From an uncultured Gammaproteobacteria bacterium (GTDB lineage: Bacteria > Patescibacteriota > Patescibacteriia > Patescibacteriales > WJLG01): a DNA stretch of 55,503 nucleotides. Both the position numbers and the translations under genes were made by a program. The stretch spans positions 1 through 55,503 of the forward strand of contig CAYNAR010000008.1 in assembly GCA_964395625.1 (NCBI GenBank), read 5' to 3'. The notes beneath the pieces are model-generated. The model saw only the letters and a list, made by a program, of their open reading frames with translations, did no database searches and was not told the DNA's origin. Every line of letters starts with the position of its first letter. The first letter of the stretch is position 1. Positions 376-55,503 of the stretch are shown here, piece by piece.

Positions 376-1419
376 ATGAAAAATATAAAAATCATCACTT
401 TTTTTCTATTTCTAATGCTTCCTGTGGCGGTCTTTGCGGAAACTCCTTCCCAGATGATGTCTTTCTACGGCCGAGCCGAGTTGAATGGCGTCCCTCTGCC
501 GGTCAATTCTGTCGTCCAGGTCTTTGCTGATGGATTCTTGCAAAGCGAAGTCGTCGTCGATAACGGCGGTTATTATGCCTCTAATGACTCCAATAGGGCG
601 AGATTGGTGGCTAATAGATATGTCGGTGAACAATTGGTCTTTAAATATGTCTTACCGGGTTCCGTCGTCGGTAGCTCCCAAGTCAAATATTTGAGCGTCT
701 TTAAGCCTGGAAAGGCCGTCCAGCTCGACTTACCGTTCGTCGACAACGTCAATGTCGACATTACGCCCAATTCTTCCAATGAGAGTAATGATAATATCGG
801 TTCTTTGACTTTTTGCTCGGAGGTTTCCTATGGCTCTTGGGGTGATTGTTCGAGCGGTTTGCAGAGCAGAGATGTGTCTGACAGAAAACCGGTGGGATGT
901 GTCCTTACTGTCAGCCAAGAATTGGCTAAAACGCAGGCTTGTTCGGTCGGTGGCAAGGTTTTGGGCGTTAAGGTCTATAATAAAGAAAACAACACTGTCA
1001 CGGTGGAGTCGGCCCTAGTCCTAAAAGTCGATAGAAAGTTGTCAGAAAGGCTTAAGGGGCGTATCCTGTTGCAAGTCGAATCGGCCGGCGAAGCTTGGTA
1101 TGTCAATCCGAAAGATTCGAAGAAATATTATTTGGCCGATGGAAGCGAAGCCTTCGAGATAATGAGATATCTAGGTATCGGTATCAGTAATAGTAATTTG
1201 GAAAAAATAAAAAATGATCGAGCTTTTTCCGCGAAGAACGCCGGCAAGATATTCCTGCAAGTCGAATCGGCCGGCGAAGCTTGGTATGTCGACCCGAAAG
1301 ACAATAAACCTTATTATTTAAAAGATGGAAATGCCGCCTACGGGATAATGCGCCAATCCGGCCTCGGTATAAGCAATGACGATTTGAGGAAGATATCGGT
1401 CGGAGTTCTGGCGAGATAG
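376..1419 (+). CDS. Secreted/surface protein with a Cys-rich TSP1-like motif and two C-terminal 'LQVESAGEAWYV' repeats (CPR-type repeat domain)
   Basis: Signal peptide MKNIKIITFFLFLMLPVAVFA. The start is placed at ATG 376 within ORF 337..1419. The tandem repeat has a 62-aa period. Confidence 0.75.
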   Translation: MKNIKIITFFLFLMLPVAVFAETPSQMMSFYGRAELNGVPLPVNSVVQVFADGFLQSEVVVDNGGYYASNDSNRARLVANRYVGEQLVFKYVLPGSVVGSSQVKYLSVFKPGKAVQLDLPFVDNVNVDITPNSSNESNDNIGSLTFCSEVSYGSWGDCSSGLQSRDVSDRKPVGCVLTVSQELAKTQACSVGGKVLGVKVYNKENNTVTVESALVLKVDRKLSERLKGRILLQVESAGEAWYVNPKDSKKYYLADGSEAFEIMRYLGIGISNSNLEKIKNDRAFSAKNAGKIFLQVESAGEAWYVDPKDNKPYYLKDGNAAYGIMRQSGLGISNDDLRKISVGVLAR

Positions 1420-24885: not shown

Positions 24886-27111
24886 ATGAGGCTTGGAAAG
24901 AATATATTTTCAGCTTGTTTTTTGATAGGTTTGACTTTGTCAGGCCTTTTTGTCGTTGGTGCGTCTTCCGTGTCGGCTGTTACGAGTGATGGAGAGCGAA
25001 TTTTAGTTAAATACAAAGACAAGAAAGACTTATCTGTGTTTGAAGTGCCACCCGATAAGAATATTGAAGAGATGGTTAAGGAGTATAACTCCAAAAAGGA
25101 GGTGGATTATGCCGAGCCGGATTATGAATACGAGGTCTCCGTACTTCCCAGTGATTCTTATTATAATAAGCAATGGTATCTAGATAAGATACGTGCCCCT
25201 TATGCTTGGGATAAGGTCCGCGAGACGCCGAGCATCGTCGTGGCGGTCATCGATTCCGGAATTCAGATAAAGCACCCGGATCTATATCCGAATATTTGGG
25301 TGAACGAAGATGAGATACCAGACAATAATAAAGACGACGACGGCAATGGTTTCATGGACGATTACAACGGCTGGGATTTTTTAAGCAACACTCCTGACCC
25401 ATCGCCTAAGTTTAATGAAGGCTTCAATGAGTCCGGGATAGTCCATGGTACTTTGGTGTCCGGAATAATCGGCGCTGTCGGCAATAATTCCAGCGGCGTA
25501 TCGGGAGTGTCTTGGAATATTAAAGTTATGCCTCTTAGGGTTTTGGATGACGATGGCGAGGGGCGGACGAACGAAGTGGTTAGGGCGATAGACTATGCGA
25601 TAGCCAATAAGGCCGATGTCATCAATTTTAGCTTTGTGGGCTTTAATTATAGTCGTTCTTTATACGAGGCTATAAAGCGTGCCTATGAAGCCGGCATAAT
25701 AATGGTGGCAGCCGCCGGTAACGAGAGCGATCAGGGCGATGGCTACGATCTGAACGAAGTGCCGATGTATCCGGCTTGTAGCGAGGGAGACGAGAATATG
25801 GTTATCGGTGTGGCCGCTACCGACGCGGTCGACCAGAAGGCCAGTTTCTCCAGTTACGGATTGCGTTGTGTCGACGTGGCCGCTCCAGGTGTCAGTTTTT
25901 TCGGTTTAGCCGTCTACAAGCCGACGCAAAGCATCGGTTCTCGTCATTTCGATCAGTATTTCGGAGGCTATTGGTCCGGAACATCGATGGCTACACCGGT
26001 GACTTCCGGTATTCTAGCCTTAATTAAAAGTCGCAACCCTAGTCTTAAATCCAAGGAAGTTTCCGATGTATTAATGGCTAGCACTGATGATATAAGCCGA
26101 TTAAACCCGAACTATTCCGGTCAACTCGGTACTGGTCGCGTCAATGCTTTCTCGGCGGTCAATCTTGCCGAGAAGACTATCTTAGACAAGCAACGTCAAA
26201 TAGTGGTCGTCCCTTATTCCTCCGGTTCCAATGAGATAAAGGTCTTCGATCCCAAAGGACAGTCGACTAAGGTGTATAAGATAGACGACAAGATTTCCGG
26301 TAATGGTTGGAATATCTCTTCTGGCGATTTGGACGGAGACCGGAAAGATGAAATCGTCTTAGGCGCCGGTTCCGGGCAGAGGCCTGAAATCGTCGTCTTG
26401 GGTAGCGATGGCAAAATCAAGTTTCGGTTTTTAGCTTATGCCGTTTCCTATAAAGACGGAGTCAAGGTGGCCTTGGGTGATGTCGATGGCGATGGTATAG
26501 ATGAAATAGTTTCTTCTCCTGCCGGCAAGGGTGGTCCTCATATCAGGATTTTTGATCAAAACGGTAAAGTCGAGGGCCAATTCTTCGCCTATGATAAAGA
26601 TTTTCGCGGTGGCGTATCGGTTGCCGTCGGCGATGTCGATGGGGATAGTCGAGAGGAGATAGTGACTTCCGTCGGTTTCAAAGGCGCTCCTTTGGTGAAG
26701 ATTTTTAACGCTAAAGGCTCTCTTAAAAAACAGTTTTACGCTTATGACCGCAATTTTCTCGGCGGAGTCAATCTAGTAGTGGCCGATGTGATAACCGAAT
26801 CTGGTTCGAAGAAGGAGGAGATAGTCACGGCCCCGAATAAAGGAGGGGGTCCCCATGTGCGAATGTTCGACGATACCGGAAACGTAAGATCTCAATTTTT
26901 CGCCTATGATAAAGGTTTGCGTAGCGGAGTGAGCTTGGCCGCCGGAGACGTCGATGGCGACGGTCTTTTCGATATTGTTACCGGCGCTTTGGCTGGTGGT
27001 GGTCCGCATGTCCGCGTATTTAGGCCTAATGGACAGATGCTGTCGTCCTTCTACTCTTTCGCACAAAATTTCAATGGCGGAATAAGTGTCGGCACAGTGA
27101 ACGTGAAGTGA
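24886..27111 (+). CDS. Secreted S8 subtilisin-like protease with C-terminal FG-GAP/VCBS-like repeats
   Basis: Catalytic triad motifs VAVIDSG, HGTLVSG and GTSMATP; repeats GDVDGDG.DEIV / GGPHVR.F / FFAYD. Confidence 0.92.
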   Translation: MRLGKNIFSACFLIGLTLSGLFVVGASSVSAVTSDGERILVKYKDKKDLSVFEVPPDKNIEEMVKEYNSKKEVDYAEPDYEYEVSVLPSDSYYNKQWYLDKIRAPYAWDKVRETPSIVVAVIDSGIQIKHPDLYPNIWVNEDEIPDNNKDDDGNGFMDDYNGWDFLSNTPDPSPKFNEGFNESGIVHGTLVSGIIGAVGNNSSGVSGVSWNIKVMPLRVLDDDGEGRTNEVVRAIDYAIANKADVINFSFVGFNYSRSLYEAIKRAYEAGIIMVAAAGNESDQGDGYDLNEVPMYPACSEGDENMVIGVAATDAVDQKASFSSYGLRCVDVAAPGVSFFGLAVYKPTQSIGSRHFDQYFGGYWSGTSMATPVTSGILALIKSRNPSLKSKEVSDVLMASTDDISRLNPNYSGQLGTGRVNAFSAVNLAEKTILDKQRQIVVVPYSSGSNEIKVFDPKGQSTKVYKIDDKISGNGWNISSGDLDGDRKDEIVLGAGSGQRPEIVVLGSDGKIKFRFLAYAVSYKDGVKVALGDVDGDGIDEIVSSPAGKGGPHIRIFDQNGKVEGQFFAYDKDFRGGVSVAVGDVDGDSREEIVTSVGFKGAPLVKIFNAKGSLKKQFYAYDRNFLGGVNLVVADVITESGSKKEEIVTAPNKGGGPHVRMFDDTGNVRSQFFAYDKGLRSGVSLAAGDVDGDGLFDIVTGALAGGGPHVRVFRPNGQMLSSFYSFAQNFNGGISVGTVNVK

Positions 27112-48209: not shown

Positions 48210-48611
48210 ATGTCTAAAATAATTATCGCTTCTGGGCCGGTTATCGTCGATAAAGGCAAGGTCCTTCTTAATAAGCATGGTGACGATAAATTTTGGAAAT
48301 TCTGCGGTGGTCGCGTCGAGGACTTCGATTTCGATTTGCAGGAGACGGCTAAGCGCGAGGCTAAGGAGGAGATGGGAATCGATATCGAAATAACCGACCC
48401 GGAACCATTCCTTTTTCACACTAGAAAAGAAAGAGACGGGCAGAGTATCGATGTTATTCTGGTTCACTATAATGCTAAGATTGTTGGCGAGATAAAACCT
48501 GGTGCGGATATCACGGAGTGGAAGTGGATACCGCTCAAGGATTTGGAGAAAGAGGATTTGGGCCCCAATATCGTGCCGGCCTTGGTGCATTTTTGGTATT
48601 TGGATAAATAA
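48210..48611 (+). CDS. NUDIX hydrolase
   Basis: WKFCGGRVE...QETAKREAKEEMG. Confidence 0.85.
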   Translation: MSKIIIASGPVIVDKGKVLLNKHGDDKFWKFCGGRVEDFDFDLQETAKREAKEEMGIDIEITDPEPFLFHTRKERDGQSIDVILVHYNAKIVGEIKPGADITEWKWIPLKDLEKEDLGPNIVPALVHFWYLDK

Positions 48612-48654
48612 TTGTTCTGCCACTTTTTTAAAAGAGTGGCGTAGATTGTTTTTG

Positions 48655-49059
48655 TGTCATACCGGCGAATGCCGGTATCCAGTTATGCAAGGAGGGAGAA
48701 AATATTTTGTTTATATTTTGGCTAGTAAAAAGAATGGAACTTTGTACATCGGAGTTACTAATAGTTTGTATCGCAGAATACATGAACATAAACAGGGGCT
48801 GGTTGAAGGTTTTACAAAAAAATACAATATTAAGGATTTAGTTTATTATGAAGTTTATGGAAATATTGGAGCGGCGATTTATAGAGAAAAATGCCTTAAG
48901 GAGTGGAAGAGGGAATGGAAAATAAATTTAATAGAAAAAGAAAATAGAGAGTGGGGGGATTTATTTGATACGTTGTTTTGAGGAATGTAGGCGCCGTGTC
49001 ATGTCAGTTTTGAATTTGTAGTTTTACGAAAATGGATCCCGGCCTTCGCCGGGATGACA
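48655..49059 (+). mobile_element. Putative GIY-YIG-encoding palindromic element bounded by 27-bp hairpin inverted repeats
   Basis: Left end TGTCATACCGGCGAATGCCGGTATCCA (48655-48681) and right end TGGATCCCGGCCTTCGCCGGGATGACA (49033-49059) are 24/27 inverted-identical. The interior is about 30% GC in sample rows. Confidence 0.65.
48685..48981 (+). CDS. Small stand-alone GIY-YIG nuclease (98 aa)
   Basis: YFVYILAS..NGTLYIGVTNSL.RRI.EHK..FTKKY..LVYYE..AI.REK.LK.WKR.WKI.LIE. Confidence 0.92.
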   Translation: MQGGRKYFVYILASKKNGTLYIGVTNSLYRRIHEHKQGLVEGFTKKYNIKDLVYYEVYGNIGAAIYREKCLKEWKREWKINLIEKENREWGDLFDTLF

Positions 49060-49084
49060 GTGTTAATAATAATTTTATAAAAAT

Positions 49085-50233
49085 ATGAATACCGCGGTTG
49101 TTAGTCTTTTTGGGATTCTAATCTTGGCAGGCCTTATTGCTGTTATTTTTTTGTTGATAAAAAAGAAGGATGGTAAAAATGAAGACAATGAAAAATTAGT
49201 GGCTCTCTTGGAGCGCGTCTCTTCGCTTTCTTTACAGAACGAGGAATTGCGCAAAGCCGTCGACTCTAAGCTTTCCGAGGCTTACAAGACGACGCAGGAT
49301 CAGTTCGGCAAGACGGCCGGCATGATGCAAGGCGTGACCGGACAGGCCAATAAATTGATGATGGAGATGCACTCTCAGTCGCAGAAGGTCATCGCCGAGG
49401 TCTCGGAGAAATTGGCCAAGCTGGACGAGACCAATAAGCAGGTGGTTAATTTTTCTTCGCAATTGCAGAACTTGCAGGATATCTTGCAGAATCCGAAACA
49501 GCGCGGTATCTTGGGTGAGTTCTTTTTGGAGGAGACCTTGAAGAATGTTTTGCCGCCAGGAACTTACGAGATGCAGTACAAGATGGGCAAGGACAAGACC
49601 GGCACCAGCGACATCATCGTCGATGCGGCGGTTTTCGTCAAAGACAAGATCATTCCGATCGATTCTAAATTCTCTTTGGAAAATTATCAGCGCATTTTGG
49701 AGACCAACGATCCGACCGAGCGCGAGAAATTGGAAAAGGATTTTAGACAGGACTTGAAGAATCGTATCGACGAGACTTCTAAATATATCAAGCCGGAGAT
49801 GGGCACGATGGATTTCGCTTTCATGTTCATTCCGTCCGAGGCGATATATTATGATTTGTTGATAAATAAAGTCGGTGCCGTGAAGACTAATACGCGCGCC
49901 CTGATCGAGTACGCCTTCCGCGACAAGAAGGTCATCATCGTTTCGCCAACCTCCTTCTTGGCCTATCTGCAGACCGTGTTGCAAGGCCTCAAGGCCATGA
50001 AGATAGAGGAGACGGCTAAAGAAATTCAAACCAACGTCGAAAAGCTCGGCCGGCATTTGATCGCCTATGACGAATATTTCAAGAAGCTCGGCAATTCGCT
50101 GTCCACAACCGTGAATCATTATAATTCTGCTTACAAGGAATTAAAGAAGATCGATAAGGATGTTGTGAAAATTACTGATGGCGAGACGGGTATTGAGGCT
50201 TTGGAATTGGAGAGACCGAAAGAAGAGGAATAA
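49085..50233 (+). CDS. rmuC: DNA recombination protein RmuC
   Basis: N-terminal TM segment, coiled coil, NPKQRGILGE, IPIDSKF, YIKP..T.DFAFMFIPSE and IVSPT. Confidence 0.92.
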   Translation: MNTAVVSLFGILILAGLIAVIFLLIKKKDGKNEDNEKLVALLERVSSLSLQNEELRKAVDSKLSEAYKTTQDQFGKTAGMMQGVTGQANKLMMEMHSQSQKVIAEVSEKLAKLDETNKQVVNFSSQLQNLQDILQNPKQRGILGEFFLEETLKNVLPPGTYEMQYKMGKDKTGTSDIIVDAAVFVKDKIIPIDSKFSLENYQRILETNDPTEREKLEKDFRQDLKNRIDETSKYIKPEMGTMDFAFMFIPSEAIYYDLLINKVGAVKTNTRALIEYAFRDKKVIIVSPTSFLAYLQTVLQGLKAMKIEETAKEIQTNVEKLGRHLIAYDEYFKKLGNSLSTTVNHYNSAYKELKKIDKDVVKITDGETGIEALELERPKEEE

Positions 50234-50505: not shown

Positions 50506-50575
50506 ATAGACTCCTTTTTTGAAAATGAACGGATTTTTATATTTTAAAATATATCATATTTTTTAGTTTTTGTCA

Positions 50576-51559
50576 ATGATTGGGCAAGAATATTTTATAA
50601 AAACTCTCGCTTTTCTGGATATTTTTGATTATCCTCCCACTGCCATGGAAATTTGGCGGTTTTTGGGCGTGAAGGCGGAATTAGGGACAATAATGGAAAG
50701 ATTATTACCAGTGTGTCATACCGGCGAAAGCCGGTATCCAGGTTTAGGGGCTAGTGCTAAGCAAGTGGATCCCGGCCTTCGCCGGGATGACACTGGGGGC
50801 GGTGTTCTAAAAATGATGAATAAAAACGGGTTTTATTTTTTGCCTGGTCGTAAGGAACTGGTCGAAAAAAGAAGGGAATTTTTTCGATTGTCGGAAAGGA
50901 AATTTAAGGTCGCACGCAAGGCTGCAAAAATATTAAGGTTTATCCCGGGATTAAAGATGGCGGCGGTCTGCAATAATTTTTATTACCACGAAGAGTCGGA
51001 TATAGATTTTTTCATCACGACCGACAAGAATCGTCTTTGGACAGTCCGTTTTTGGGCGACCACACTTTTGGATATTTTCCGTTTGCGTGCTCGCGGGAAA
51101 AGGAGAGCCGACAGGATTTGTTTGAGTTTCTATGCTACCTGCGATTGTAATTTGGAAAAAGTGCTTTTGCCTGGTGGCGACCCCTATTTTTATTATTGGT
51201 CGGTCTTTTTTGATCCGGTCTATGACGATGGCGGTGTCGATGCTTTTTGGCAGGCGAACGGTTGGATAAAAAGACATTTTCCAAACTTTTATCCGAATAT
51301 CGGCAATAGGTCGAAAATGGTCGATGACAACTTCCTGTCCTCGGCAGTTAAAAAATCCTTCGGTGTTTTTGTGAATTCTCGGCTAGGTGACTACTTAGAG
51401 AAATTTTTCAAATCTCTGCAGTTTAAAAAAGTGTCCCGTCGTTTTTCCGGTCCGGGAGTAGTGATTTCCGAAGAGATGATAAAAATGCACGAGAATGATC
51501 GACGAGAATATTTTAGAAGCGAATTTGAAAAGAGGTGTGAAAAAATCATTAGTGATTAA
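50576..51559 (+). CDS. Hypothetical protein with a nucleotidyltransferase-like (SDID) motif, carrying an in-frame palindromic insertion
   Basis: FDYPPT..EIW N-terminal part, EESDIDFFITT..RLWTVR and DRICLSF. The insertion encodes about aa 47-73. Confidence 0.75.
   Translation: MIGQEYFIKTLAFLDIFDYPPTAMEIWRFLGVKAELGTIMERLLPVCHTGESRYPGLGASAKQVDPGLRRDDTGGGVLKMMNKNGFYFLPGRKELVEKRREFFRLSERKFKVARKAAKILRFIPGLKMAAVCNNFYYHEESDIDFFITTDKNRLWTVRFWATTLLDIFRLRARGKRRADRICLSFYATCDCNLEKVLLPGGDPYFYYWSVFFDPVYDDGGVDAFWQANGWIKRHFPNFYPNIGNRSKMVDDNFLSSAVKKSFGVFVNSRLGDYLEKFFKSLQFKKVSRRFSGPGVVISEEMIKMHENDRREYFRSEFEKRCEKIISD
50713..50793. repeat. Miniature (non-autonomous) copy of the GIY-YIG element ends, in frame within a CDS
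   Basis: Left end matches 48654-48682 at 28/29. Right end (50766-50792) matches 49033-49059 at 27/27. The spacer is 25 bp. Confidence 0.85.
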
Positions 51560-55232: not shown

Positions 55233-55309
55233 GGGCAATTAGCTCAGTTGGTTAGAGCGCGTCACTGATAATGACGAGGTCAGAGGTTCGAATCCTCTAT
55301 TGCCCACCA
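55233..55309 (+). tRNA. tRNA-Ile(GAT)
   Basis: Full cloverleaf; anticodon arm CGTCA-CTGATAA-TGACG; encoded CCA. Confidence 0.97.
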
Positions 55310-55324
55310 ACGTTTAAAAAGTGT

Positions 55325-55400
55325 AGCGGGGTAGAGCAGTTGGCAGCTCGTCAGGCCCATAACCTGAAGGTCGCTGGTTCGAGTCCAGCCCCCGCAACCA
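55325..55400 (+). tRNA. Initiator-type tRNA-Met(CAT), atypical
   Basis: 76 nt with unpaired 1:72 (A.A), A11:U24, anticodon arm TCAGG-CCCATAA-CCTGA and encoded CCA. Confidence 0.9.
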
Positions 55401-55430
55401 AGATAGTCATTGAAAATTTTGTCGTTATTG

Positions 55431-55503
55431 GCCGAGGTAGCTCAGTGGTAGAGCAAGCGACTGAAAATCGCTGTGTCGTGAGTCCGATTCTCACCCTCGG
55501 CAC
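55431..55503 (+). tRNA. tRNA-Phe(GAA), 3' end cut by the window edge
   Basis: Acceptor stem GCCGAGG/CCTCGGC, anticodon arm AGCGA-CTGAAAA-TCGCT, T-loop TCCGATT. Confidence 0.92.

What the first reader, a model, noticed from the sequence alone, without database searches (positions are those of the whole stretch)
50713..50793. Miniature derivative inserted in frame into a protein-coding gene
Seen in sequence: the same left end (28/29, difference in the loop) and right end (27/27) as the GIY-YIG unit, separated by only 25 bp. The 81-bp span keeps the reading frame and adds CHTGESRYPGLGASAKQVDPGLRRDDT at about aa 47-73. The near-identity implies a recent event. Established: Rickettsia palindromic elements insert in frame and add peptides to proteins. 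Inference: active intragenic palindrome spread in a CPR genome, with the putative autonomous partner about 1.7 kb away.
Basis: partly seen in the sequence, partly recalled or inferred. Interest (0 to 1): 0.75.

Follow-up and report, generated by a model that had tools for sequence, protein, structure and literature searches.

The report
Ssn-type hairpin pair inside a gene
An 81-bp pair of DNA hairpins of a recently described, widespread kind (the binding sites of the small Ssn single-strand DNA nuclease) sits in frame inside a Patescibacteria gene and adds 27 amino acids to a floppy loop. The insertion looks old and shared with related genomes, not freshly copied from the nuclease gene 1.7 kb away.

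Summary
Window 50713-50793 holds two convergent hairpins that match the two ends of the GIY-YIG unit at 48654-49060 (28/29 and 27/27 bases). The 81 bp are in frame in a conserved 327/329-aa gene.

The hairpins are Ssn-related motifs (SRM/NTS; Chenal et al. 2025, PMC11893778). All four fit the published SRM pattern. The 98-aa GIY-YIG protein is 54% identical to the 94-aa Neisseria gonorrhoeae GIY-YIG ORF that lies among NTS repeats. So this is an SRM-ssn-SRM unit plus a gene-less SRM pair.

An insert-free ortholog exists. AlphaFold2 models the insert as a disordered loop.

'Recent, active spread' is not supported:
- The same-type pair sits at the same codon and frame in orthologs with 54-72% protein identity.
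- Its spacer is closer to a distant ortholog's copy than to the neighbouring ssn unit.
- The ssn unit is missing from the syntenic site in two relatives.
- The same 25-mers occur in other phyla.

This loop is a hot spot. Most close orthologs carry some palindromic insert there, in at least three positions or frames. The hairpins are far better conserved than the host gene, which remains unexplained.

Verdict: new member of known kinds (Ssn/SRM, with RPE-like in-frame insertion). Moderate interest.

The parts
50713..50793 (+). Gene-less SRM pair ('mini'): left hairpin, 24-nt spacer, right hairpin, bounded by GTGTCAT...ATGACAC. It is 81 nt, is read in frame, and encodes CHTGESRYPGLGASAKQVDPGLRRDDT.
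   Evidence: As a single strand it folds into one long imperfect hairpin: DNA -29.4 kcal/mol (z -6.6), RNA -53.6 kcal/mol.
50714..50741 (+). Left SRM of the mini: TGTCATACCGGCGAAAGCCGGTATCCAG (stem ATACCGGC/GCCGGTAT, loop GAAA).
   Evidence: Fits the published SRM degenerate pattern. It is 28/29 identical to the left end of the ssn unit.
50742..50765 (+). 24-nt spacer between the two hairpins.
   Evidence: 18/24 identical to the spacer of the orthologous copy in L205, 11/24 to L121, and 9/15 to the right subterminal sequence of the ssn unit.
50765..50792 (-). Right SRM of the mini, on the minus strand: TGTCATCCCGGCGAAGGCCGGGATCCAC. The stem has C..G where the left SRM has A..T.
   Evidence: It is 27/27 identical to the right end of the ssn unit.
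50570..51559 (+). Host gene. The product is 329 aa from the TTG start and 327 aa from the ATG at 50576. It is a Patescibacteria-specific protein with an N-terminal winged-helix-like region and a nucleotidyltransferase-like core. The insert lies between helix 38-49 and the 'NGFYFL' strand.
   Evidence: 121 homologs, alignment A1 and an AlphaFold2 model with pLDDT 81.7 overall but residues 47-88 below 50. Foldseek gave only weak matches to the AadA/MNT nucleotidyltransferase fold. There was no Pfam or NCBIfam match.
48654..49060 (+). Full SRM-ssn-SRM unit (about 407 bp) in the NUDIX-rmuC intergenic spacer.
   Evidence: It is absent from the same spacer in the syntenic loci L121 and L123.
48655..48682 (+). 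Left SRM of the ssn unit (loop GAAT). It ends 2 nt before the ssn start codon.
48685..48981 (+). ssn gene: a 98-aa single-domain GIY-YIG nuclease.
   Evidence: PF01541 with E 7.9e-15. At least 7996 relatives, the listed best 120 of 93-128 aa (mostly 94-98), at 62-81% identity across many phyla. 54% identity (E 2e-36 pairwise, 2e-25 by tblastn) to the 94-aa N. gonorrhoeae ORF that sits among 7 exact NTS repeats.
49032..49059 (-). Right SRM of the ssn unit. It lies 51 nt after the ssn stop codon.
48210..48611 (+). NUDIX hydrolase gene, the left neighbour of the ssn unit and a synteny anchor.
49085..50233 (+). rmuC gene, the right neighbour of the ssn unit and a synteny anchor.

Best explanation
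The 81-bp element is a gene-less pair of convergent Ssn-related motifs (SRM/NTS hairpins). It lies in the only stop-free frame, in a permissive disordered loop of the winged-helix-like N-terminal region of a Patescibacteria nucleotidyltransferase-like protein.

The GIY-YIG gene 1.7 kb upstream is a member of the Ssn family. Members of that family tested in vitro bind such hairpins in single-stranded DNA and cut just 5' of them. Here the gene sits between a left and a right SRM of the same two sequence types, which is the canonical SRM-ssn-SRM unit.

Three steps are inferred rather than shown. First, the pair entered this loop before the window lineage split from those of L121 and L205. Second, it is tolerated because the loop is unstructured. 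Third, the hairpin arms have been kept almost unchanged at the DNA level, either by sequence-specific constraint linked to Ssn recognition or by gene conversion from other SRM copies, while the spacer and the host gene diverged.

The ssn unit is an independent presence/absence element. Whether Ssn moves or copies SRM pairs, and how, is not shown.
For: Identity of the parts:
- All four hairpins fit the published SRM pattern: 4 found, 0.19 expected (pattern from PMC11893778).
- The GIY-YIG protein has a single domain and 98 aa.
- It is 54% identical over its full length to the 94-aa N. gonorrhoeae ORF that sits among 7 exact NTS repeats in 1.47 kb.
- Of 80 homologous loci from many phyla, 51 have an upstream (+) SRM-like hairpin, 52 a downstream (-) one, and 37 both.

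The insertion:
- The synteny NUDIX-rmuC-small ORF-host gene-Wzy_C-M16 peptidase is conserved.
- L123 has a loop of baseline length with no insert.
- AlphaFold2 gives pLDDT below 50 for residues 47-88 in an otherwise confident model.
- Only 1 of the 6 frames is open.

Age:
- The insert starts at the same codon (13 residues after the A of AELG) and in the same frame in the window, L121, L205, L206 and L223.
- Window versus L205: the host gene is 59% identical in nucleotides, and 48% at third positions of identical residues. The mini is 68/81 identical (P about 1e-6) and 17/18 at third positions.
- The spacer matches L205 at 18/24 but the neighbouring unit at 9/15.
- The ssn unit is absent at the syntenic site in L121 and L123.
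Against: - The distribution on the host-protein tree is patchy. Empty loops (P0003, P0009, P0020, P0022, P0026) are interspersed with filled ones. A single ancient insertion therefore needs several losses or replacements.
- Orthologs carry different SRM sequence types at the same codon (L206, L223, L225). Others carry SRMs in another frame or position (P0005, P0008, P0013). Repeated independent insertion clearly also happens here.
- L121, the closest ortholog, has a more diverged spacer (11/24) than the distant L205.
- No copy-number or read-level data exist for the source genome.
- Ssn activity on these particular hairpins is untested.
Confidence: 0.72

Rival explanations
1. One reading: a recent MITE-like derivative of the ssn unit 1.7 kb upstream, produced by internal deletion and mobilised in trans into the host gene. 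This would be evidence of active intragenic spread.
For: The ends are 28/29 and 27/27 identical to the neighbouring unit, including its left-specific A..T and right-specific C..G stem bases. There is some subterminal similarity on the right side: 44 nt at 86% (family D20). The window and L205 minis are more alike than their host genes, as expected if both were recently renewed from a circulating master copy.
Against: The same-type pair at the same codon and frame is present in L121/L122 and L205, which come from other samples. The spacer is closer to L205's copy than to the neighbouring unit. The ssn unit is absent at the syntenic site in relatives that already carry the mini. Identical 25-mers with the same left/right difference occur in other phyla, so identity does not date the event. 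There is only one gene-less pair in 55.5 kb. No target-site duplication is visible.
Confidence: 0.15
2. Repeated independent, site-preferring insertion. SRM-type palindromes home to this loop, or to a palindrome already there, so the copies in the window, L121, L205, L206 and L223 are separate events. Ssn-made nicks would be repaired from other SRM copies.
For: At least three insertion positions or frames occur in this loop among close orthologs. Most of P0001-P0040 carry some palindromic insert, whereas distant members have a 30-37-aa baseline. L205 has three elements in tandem. Small palindromes are nested inside SRM loops in L121, L223 and L225. Different SRM sequence types occupy the same codon.
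Against: The bases flanking the insertion share no motif across the orthologs (CCAGTG, CAAGAG, CAAGGG, TTAGTG, ACCCTT). A sequence-specific target is therefore unlikely unless the target is an earlier palindrome. The spacer homology between the window and L205 is most simply explained by common descent.
Confidence: 0.3
3. An assembly artefact: a collapsed or chimeric join of repeat copies created an apparent insertion.
For: Short palindromic repeats can mislead assemblers. No reads were available to check.
Against: The reading frame is kept, and both flanks match orthologs. The same arrangement appears in independent assemblies from JGI and Logan samples (L121, L122, L205).
Confidence: 0.02
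4. The 27-residue peptide is itself a selected functional module of the protein, for example a Cys/His metal site.
For: The peptide is 18/27 identical between the window and L205 in the alignment, which is higher than the host protein overall.
Against: The conservation is at the DNA level: third positions are 17/18 identical, against 48% outside the insert. The segment is modelled as disordered. Close orthologs lack it or carry unrelated inserts.
Confidence: 0.05

Closest known systems
Ssn nucleases and their NTS/SRM hairpin repeats (Chenal et al. 2025, Nat Commun, PMC11893778)
   Same: A single-domain GIY-YIG protein of about 94-98 aa. It is flanked on both sides by hairpins that fit HGTCWY..YYVSBRH..WNVSBRG..RNCYNB, with the GTC prefix and the C after the palindrome. 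It is 54% identical to the N. gonorrhoeae protein in an NTS cluster. Convergent (+/-) SRM pairs also surround the Neisseria gene.
   Different: The host is a Patescibacteria (CPR) genome, a group the paper does not mention. The SRMs are sparse: 4 in 55 kb. One pair is inside a coding sequence and is translated, whereas the paper reports only 2% of NTS inside genes in N. meningitidis. In Neisseria the proposed role is limiting transformation by NTS-bearing ssDNA. Nothing is known about that here.
Rickettsia palindromic elements (RPE; reviewed in PMC10969869)
   Same: Palindromic repeats inserted in frame into unrelated protein genes. They add a peptide at positions compatible with the fold.
   Different: RPEs are about 150 bp, fall into ten families, and have dozens of intragenic copies per genome. 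No partner enzyme is mentioned for them in the review consulted (PMC10969869). Here there is one 81-bp copy in the window and a defined partner nuclease family. Sequence relatedness to RPEs was not tested. The Ssn paper lists Rickettsia among SRM-rich genera.
REP/BIME repeats with RAYT (IS200/IS605-like Y1 transposases)
   Same: Short GC-rich hairpin repeats, often in inverted pairs, flank the gene of the single-strand-specific enzyme thought to act on them. The enzyme gene sits between two repeats.
   Different: The enzyme here is a GIY-YIG nuclease, not a HUH/Y1 transposase. No strand-transfer chemistry is known for it. REPs are extragenic by definition.
Classical bacterial MITEs (e.g. Correia elements; QMITEs of Coxiella, PMC5896051)
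   Same: A short non-coding element with terminal inverted repeats that shares its ends with a longer gene-carrying unit. Such elements can fuse in frame with host ORFs.
   Different: No target-site duplication was seen. The partner encodes no DDE or other known transposase. Multi-copy status in this genome is not shown.
Free-standing and intron-borne GIY-YIG homing endonucleases (I-TevI, Seg proteins)
   Same: A GIY-YIG catalytic domain in a selfish-looking, patchily distributed small gene.
   Different: Homing enzymes carry extra DNA-binding domains and cut double-stranded DNA at an empty allele. Ssn is a bare catalytic domain that is specific for hairpins in ssDNA.

Membership tests
Ssn nuclease family (cd10448; PMC11893778) | A single-domain GIY-YIG protein of about 94 aa with no extra DNA-binding domain. 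| tested here: met
   The protein is 98 aa. PF01541 covers residues 6-81 and no other domain matches. The listed relatives are 93-128 aa, mostly 94-98.
Ssn nuclease family (cd10448; PMC11893778) | Homology to Neisseria SsnA. The paper's criterion is E < 1e-10. | tested here: met
   tblastn gives E 2e-25, and pairwise BLASTP gives 54% identity with E 2e-36, to the only matching ORF (94 aa) in a N. gonorrhoeae chromosome. That ORF lies among 7 exact NTS repeats. Caveat: the gonococcal ortholog was used, not N. meningitidis NMV_0044 itself.
Ssn nuclease family (cd10448; PMC11893778) | The gene is flanked 5' and 3' by SRM hairpins. | tested here: met
   There is an SRM at 48655-48682 (+) and another at 49032-49059 (-). 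The same architecture is seen in 37 of 80 homologous loci.
Ssn nuclease family (cd10448; PMC11893778) | Assignment to CDD model cd10448. | not testable with these tools
   No CDD library was available.
Ssn nuclease family (cd10448; PMC11893778) | Site-specific cleavage of ssDNA 5' of the hairpin, with no activity on dsDNA or RNA. | not testable with these tools
   This needs a biochemical assay.
SRM / NTS repeat | A match to HGTCWYN(0-2)YYVSBRHN(0-5)WNVSBRGN(0-2)RNCYNB, and enrichment over shuffled sequence. | tested here: met
   There are 4 matches in the window. The shuffle mean is 0.185 and the maximum 2.
MITE (non-autonomous transposon) | Terminal inverted repeats shared with a longer coding element. 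| tested here: met
   The ends GTGTCAT...ATGACAC plus 25-nt hairpin ends are identical in type to those of the ssn unit.
MITE (non-autonomous transposon) | A target-site duplication. | tested here: not met
   The flanks are ...TTACCAGT | ... | TGGGGGCG for the mini and ...GATTGTTTTT | ... | (G)TGTTAAT for the unit. No direct repeat is present.
MITE (non-autonomous transposon) | Many copies in the genome. | tested here: inconclusive
   There is one gene-less pair in the 55.5-kb contig. The rest of the genome is not available. A 61-nt version is multi-copy in another MAG.
MITE (non-autonomous transposon) | The partner encodes a transposase. | tested here: not met
   The partner ORF matches only the GIY-YIG nuclease domain.
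Rickettsia palindromic elements | In-frame insertion in protein genes at structurally permissive sites. | tested here: met
Rickettsia palindromic elements | Sequence membership in one of the RPE families. | not tested
   No RPE consensus sequences were at hand.

The most novel reading that the evidence does not exclude
SRM pairs are not passive debris. They are landing pads in a homing-like cycle. Ssn nicks the hairpins when the DNA is single-stranded, and repair copies from another SRM-bounded copy. This would keep hairpin arms identical even inside coding sequence across deep divergence, swap SRM types at a fixed site, and turn a gene-less pair into an ssn-carrying unit or back again. In streamlined Patescibacteria this turnover would be a steady source of new loop peptides in proteins.
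Probability: 0.2. Interest if true: 0.75.

Novelty: new member of a known kind. Interest (0 to 1): 0.48.

Why it matters
The role of Ssn/SRM outside Neisseria is an open question, and so is whether SRM-ssn-SRM units are mobile. The authors only raise the resemblance to insertion sequences.

This locus gives two concrete handles. First, the ssn unit is a clean presence/absence difference at a conserved syntenic site. Second, an SRM pair is embedded in a coding sequence, where neutral divergence can be measured codon by codon. The hairpin arms are far better conserved than the surrounding gene.

The locus also extends RPE-like in-frame palindrome insertion to the Candidate Phyla Radiation. It points to one protein loop that has been colonised again and again.

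Tried and rejected
- **Peptide search.** The 5.8-billion-protein collection rejected the 27-aa insert peptide as too short. A 54-aa concatenate collected only 3 candidates and missed even the known carriers. No proteome-wide count of in-frame SRM peptides could be made.
- **Metagenome scan.** It still gave L223 and L225.
- **Contig look-ups.** The look-ups for P0004 and P0014 returned no DNA.
- **No matches.** The GIY-YIG protein found no solved structure by sequence. NCBIfam gave only a sub-threshold group I intron endonuclease hit.
- **Rfam.** Nothing was found at gathering thresholds. There was only a weak BSnc120 hit with E 0.2 over the right SRM of the ssn unit.
- **Left/right stem difference as a universal rule.** Rejected. 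Many of the 37 two-sided ssn loci have identical ends.
- **The difference keeps the two hairpins from pairing with each other.** Rejected. The minimum-energy fold of the whole element is still one long hairpin.
- **GTDB orthologs.** The strict SRM pattern found only one hit in 80 orthologous loci of GTDB representatives. SRM-bearing alleles are concentrated in the window's near relatives.
- **Empty allele.** No sequence with over 90% identity to the host protein but lacking the insert is in the protein collection. The next hit after the window's own protein is 68% identical.

Full report
**1. Observation**

The sequence at 50713-50793 reads GTGTCATACCGGCGAAAGCCGGTATCCAG, then a 24-nt spacer, then TGGATCCCGGCCTTCGCCGGGATGACAC. 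A degenerate search for the hairpin finds four copies in the window and none in shuffles. There are two on the plus strand (48656, 50715) and two on the minus strand (49034, 50767).

The plus/minus pair at 48.6-49.1 kb brackets a 98-aa GIY-YIG ORF. The pair at 50.7 kb brackets only 24 nt. The left ends are 28/29 identical, with the difference in the loop. The right ends are 27/27 identical.

The left and right hairpins differ from each other at the base after GTCAT and at its pairing partner: A..T on the left and C..G on the right. The mini keeps this left/right difference. It therefore has the two ends of the unit, not two random copies of one repeat.

The 81 nt lie in ORF 50570-51559 and keep the frame. 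Of the six frames of the element, only the one in use lacks stop codons.

**2. What the hairpins and the GIY-YIG gene are**

A literature search led to Chenal et al. 2025 (PMC11893778). They describe a family of roughly 94-aa single-domain GIY-YIG proteins called Ssn. These proteins bind a hairpin repeat in single-stranded DNA and cut just upstream of it. The repeat is NTS in Neisseria (CGTCATTCCCGCGMAVGCGGGAATCYRG) and SRM in general. The genes are typically flanked by SRMs on both sides.

All four window hairpins fit the published SRM pattern. Exactly four matches are found, against 0.19 expected.

The window protein has thousands of relatives, the listed ones mostly 94-98 aa, at 62-81% identity in very different phyla. 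It is 54% identical over its full length to the single matching ORF of a N. gonorrhoeae chromosome: E 2e-25 by tblastn and 2e-36 pairwise. That 94-aa ORF sits among seven exact NTS repeats in 1.47 kb.

In 80 homologous loci, 51 have an upstream (+) SRM-like hairpin, 52 a downstream (-) one and 37 both. This agrees with the paper's 42% two-sided figure. The unit at 48654-49060 is therefore a canonical SRM-ssn-SRM unit, and the finding is a gene-less convergent SRM pair.

**3. The host gene and the insertion**

The host protein has 121 homologs, essentially all from Patescibacteria. It has no Pfam or NCBIfam family. The AlphaFold2 model is confident (pLDDT 81.7, pTM 0.79). It has weak fold matches to AadA/MNT-type nucleotidyltransferases.

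Residues 47-88, which include the insert, are the only long low-confidence stretch. They follow helix 38-49 and precede the conserved NGFYFL strand.

In distant family members, the segment from the conserved FDYP-T motif to the NGFYFL strand, which includes this loop, is 30-37 residues. In most of the 40 closest relatives it is 45-109 residues. P0003 (L123), with 60% aa identity outside the loop, has the baseline length and no insert. The 27 residues are therefore an insertion relative to the family ground state.

**4. Age and origin**

Gene order is conserved in L121 (P0002) and L123 (P0003): NUDIX, rmuC, small ORF, host gene, Wzy_C, M16 peptidase.

Neither relative has the ssn unit in the NUDIX-rmuC spacer. 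This makes the unit a presence/absence element.

In contrast, an SRM-type insert starts at exactly the same codon and in the same frame in several orthologs. That codon is 13 residues after the A of AELG.
- L121 has the same type, with a 27-nt palindrome nested in the left loop.
- L205 has the same type, followed by a second SRM pair and a third repeat.
- L206 and L223 carry other SRM sequence types at that codon. L225 carries another type in the same loop and frame, four codons earlier.

Between the window and L205 the host gene is 59% identical in nucleotides, and 48% at third positions of identical residues. The mini is 68/81 identical, with 17/18 identical third positions (binomial P about 1e-6).

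The excess lies in the hairpin arms: 25/25 on the right and 23/25 on the left. The spacer, at 18/24, is not significantly better conserved than the gene. It is nevertheless closer to L205's spacer than to the subterminal sequence of the neighbouring ssn unit, which matches at 9/15.

The same 25-mers, with the same left A..T and right C..G difference, also form 61-90-nt pairs in proteobacterial and other MAGs. There they lie near ORF ends, so they are probably intergenic.

Together these results argue against a recent derivation from the unit 1.7 kb away. They show that hairpin identity cannot date the event.

**5. A hot spot**

On a distance tree of the host proteins, filled and empty loops are interspersed. 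SRM-type inserts occur in at least three registers:
- codon +13 in the 'CH..' frame;
- codon +13 shifted by one base, giving 'VIP..' (P0013);
- codon +6, giving 'VIP..' (P0005, P0008).

Unrelated CPR palindromes occupy the same loop in other orthologs. Two further variable sites exist in the family.

Independent insertion into this loop therefore happens repeatedly, even if the window, L121 and L205 copies are most simply one event. The bases flanking the insert share no motif. If there is targeting, the target is more likely an existing palindrome than a sequence.

**6. How it most likely works**

Shown here:
- the identity of the parts;
- the in-frame, loop-located insertion;
- its sharing with orthologs;
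- the presence/absence of the ssn unit;
- the DNA-level conservation of the arms.

From the literature: in vitro, the tested Ssn proteins bind the hairpin in ssDNA and cut 5' of the motif on the motif strand only. For a convergent pair this places the two cuts at the outer boundaries on opposite strands.

Inferred: the pair is tolerated because the loop is disordered. The arms are held by recognition-linked constraint or by gene conversion among SRM copies.

Not known: whether Ssn mobilises pairs. No target-site duplication was seen, and no strand-transfer activity is known for GIY-YIG enzymes.

**7. Comparison and novelty**

The element is a member of the Ssn/SRM system. It behaves like a Rickettsia palindromic element in that it is an in-frame palindrome in a protein gene (PMC10969869).

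The new points are the host group (CPR, which the Ssn paper does not mention), a translated SRM pair, the repeatedly colonised loop, and the measurable conservation of the arms within coding sequence. The paper reports only 2% of NTS inside genes in N. meningitidis.

I found no paper in the held library describing in-frame palindromic insertions in CPR proteins.

**8. Limits**

- Only one contig of the source genome is available.
- Only three DNA copies of the same SRM type at this site were recovered.
- The proteome-wide peptide search failed.
- The large-collection scans were exhausted.
- The alternative of repeated site-preferring insertion cannot be excluded.

Noticed in passing
L121:6153-6179; L223:496-522; L225:2880-2904 (orthologous host genes): Small palindromes of about 25-27 nt are nested inside the loops of SRM hairpins. 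On the appropriate strand they share a GGAG(TTTA) prefix followed by a CCCCGYG...CRCGGGG hairpin. This suggests that SRM loops are themselves insertion targets.
   Followed up: partly
Alignment A1, columns 317-385 and 460-475 (window host gene about 51170-51190 and 51390-51420): There are two more variable sites in the host protein family. Some orthologs carry long inserts there built from other common CPR palindromic repeats, with peptides such as HPASQGSAPLSRGE and SPLLGGVAEGWGV. The window protein has no insert at either site.
   Followed up: no
L205:1443-2648: One ortholog (P0012, 401 aa) has three palindromic elements in tandem in the same loop: a CHTG-type SRM pair, a CHPRENGDP/LDSRLRGND SRM pair, and a THPVSEYHPPAGGTPLFRGDL repeat. 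All three are in frame.
   Followed up: partly
L206:1178-1239: A 62-nt convergent SRM pair (left stem T..A, right stem C..G) lies in the intergenic spacer between the host-gene ortholog and Wzy_C. Its sequence type differs from that of the intragenic pair in the same contig.
   Followed up: no
L207-L218 (MAG labelled 'Rhizobium sp. Q54', CAMATN01): A 61-nt version of exactly the same left/right SRM pair occurs on at least six contigs of one high-GC MAG, and an 80-nt version on a seventh. The copies have near-identical spacers, so in that genome the element looks like a multi-copy mini.
   Followed up: partly
L383 (NZ_CP119140.1 1881687-1883156): Two 2.17-Mb N. gonorrhoeae chromosomes are filed as plasmids in the plasmid collection. 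Around the gonococcal ssn ORF, the NTS repeats are arranged as convergent (+/-) pairs of 105-183 bp rather than directly bracketing the gene.
   Followed up: partly
Loci L125, L127, L132, L138 and others: Many genome records titled 'uncultured Gammaproteobacteria' carry this Patescibacteria-type gene and its synteny. The organism labels in these records are probably wrong.
   Followed up: no
window 49001-49076: There is a weak, sub-threshold Rfam hit to Brucella sRNA BSnc120 (20.8 bits against a gathering score of 114, E 0.2) over the right SRM of the ssn unit. That model possibly contains an SRM-like palindrome.
   Followed up: no
window 26466-26984: Direct repeats of about 150-315 nt spacing encode GDVDGDG-like motifs (families D4, D9 and D14). 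They look like tandem calcium-binding/FG-GAP-type repeats in a large protein.
   Followed up: no
window 1070-1395 and 55233-55503: There is a 140-nt direct repeat at 72% identity (1070-1209 and 1256-1395). The right end of the contig holds a tRNA-Ile/Met/Phe cluster, and the first bases of the contig (6-32) resemble a tRNA T-arm.
   Followed up: no
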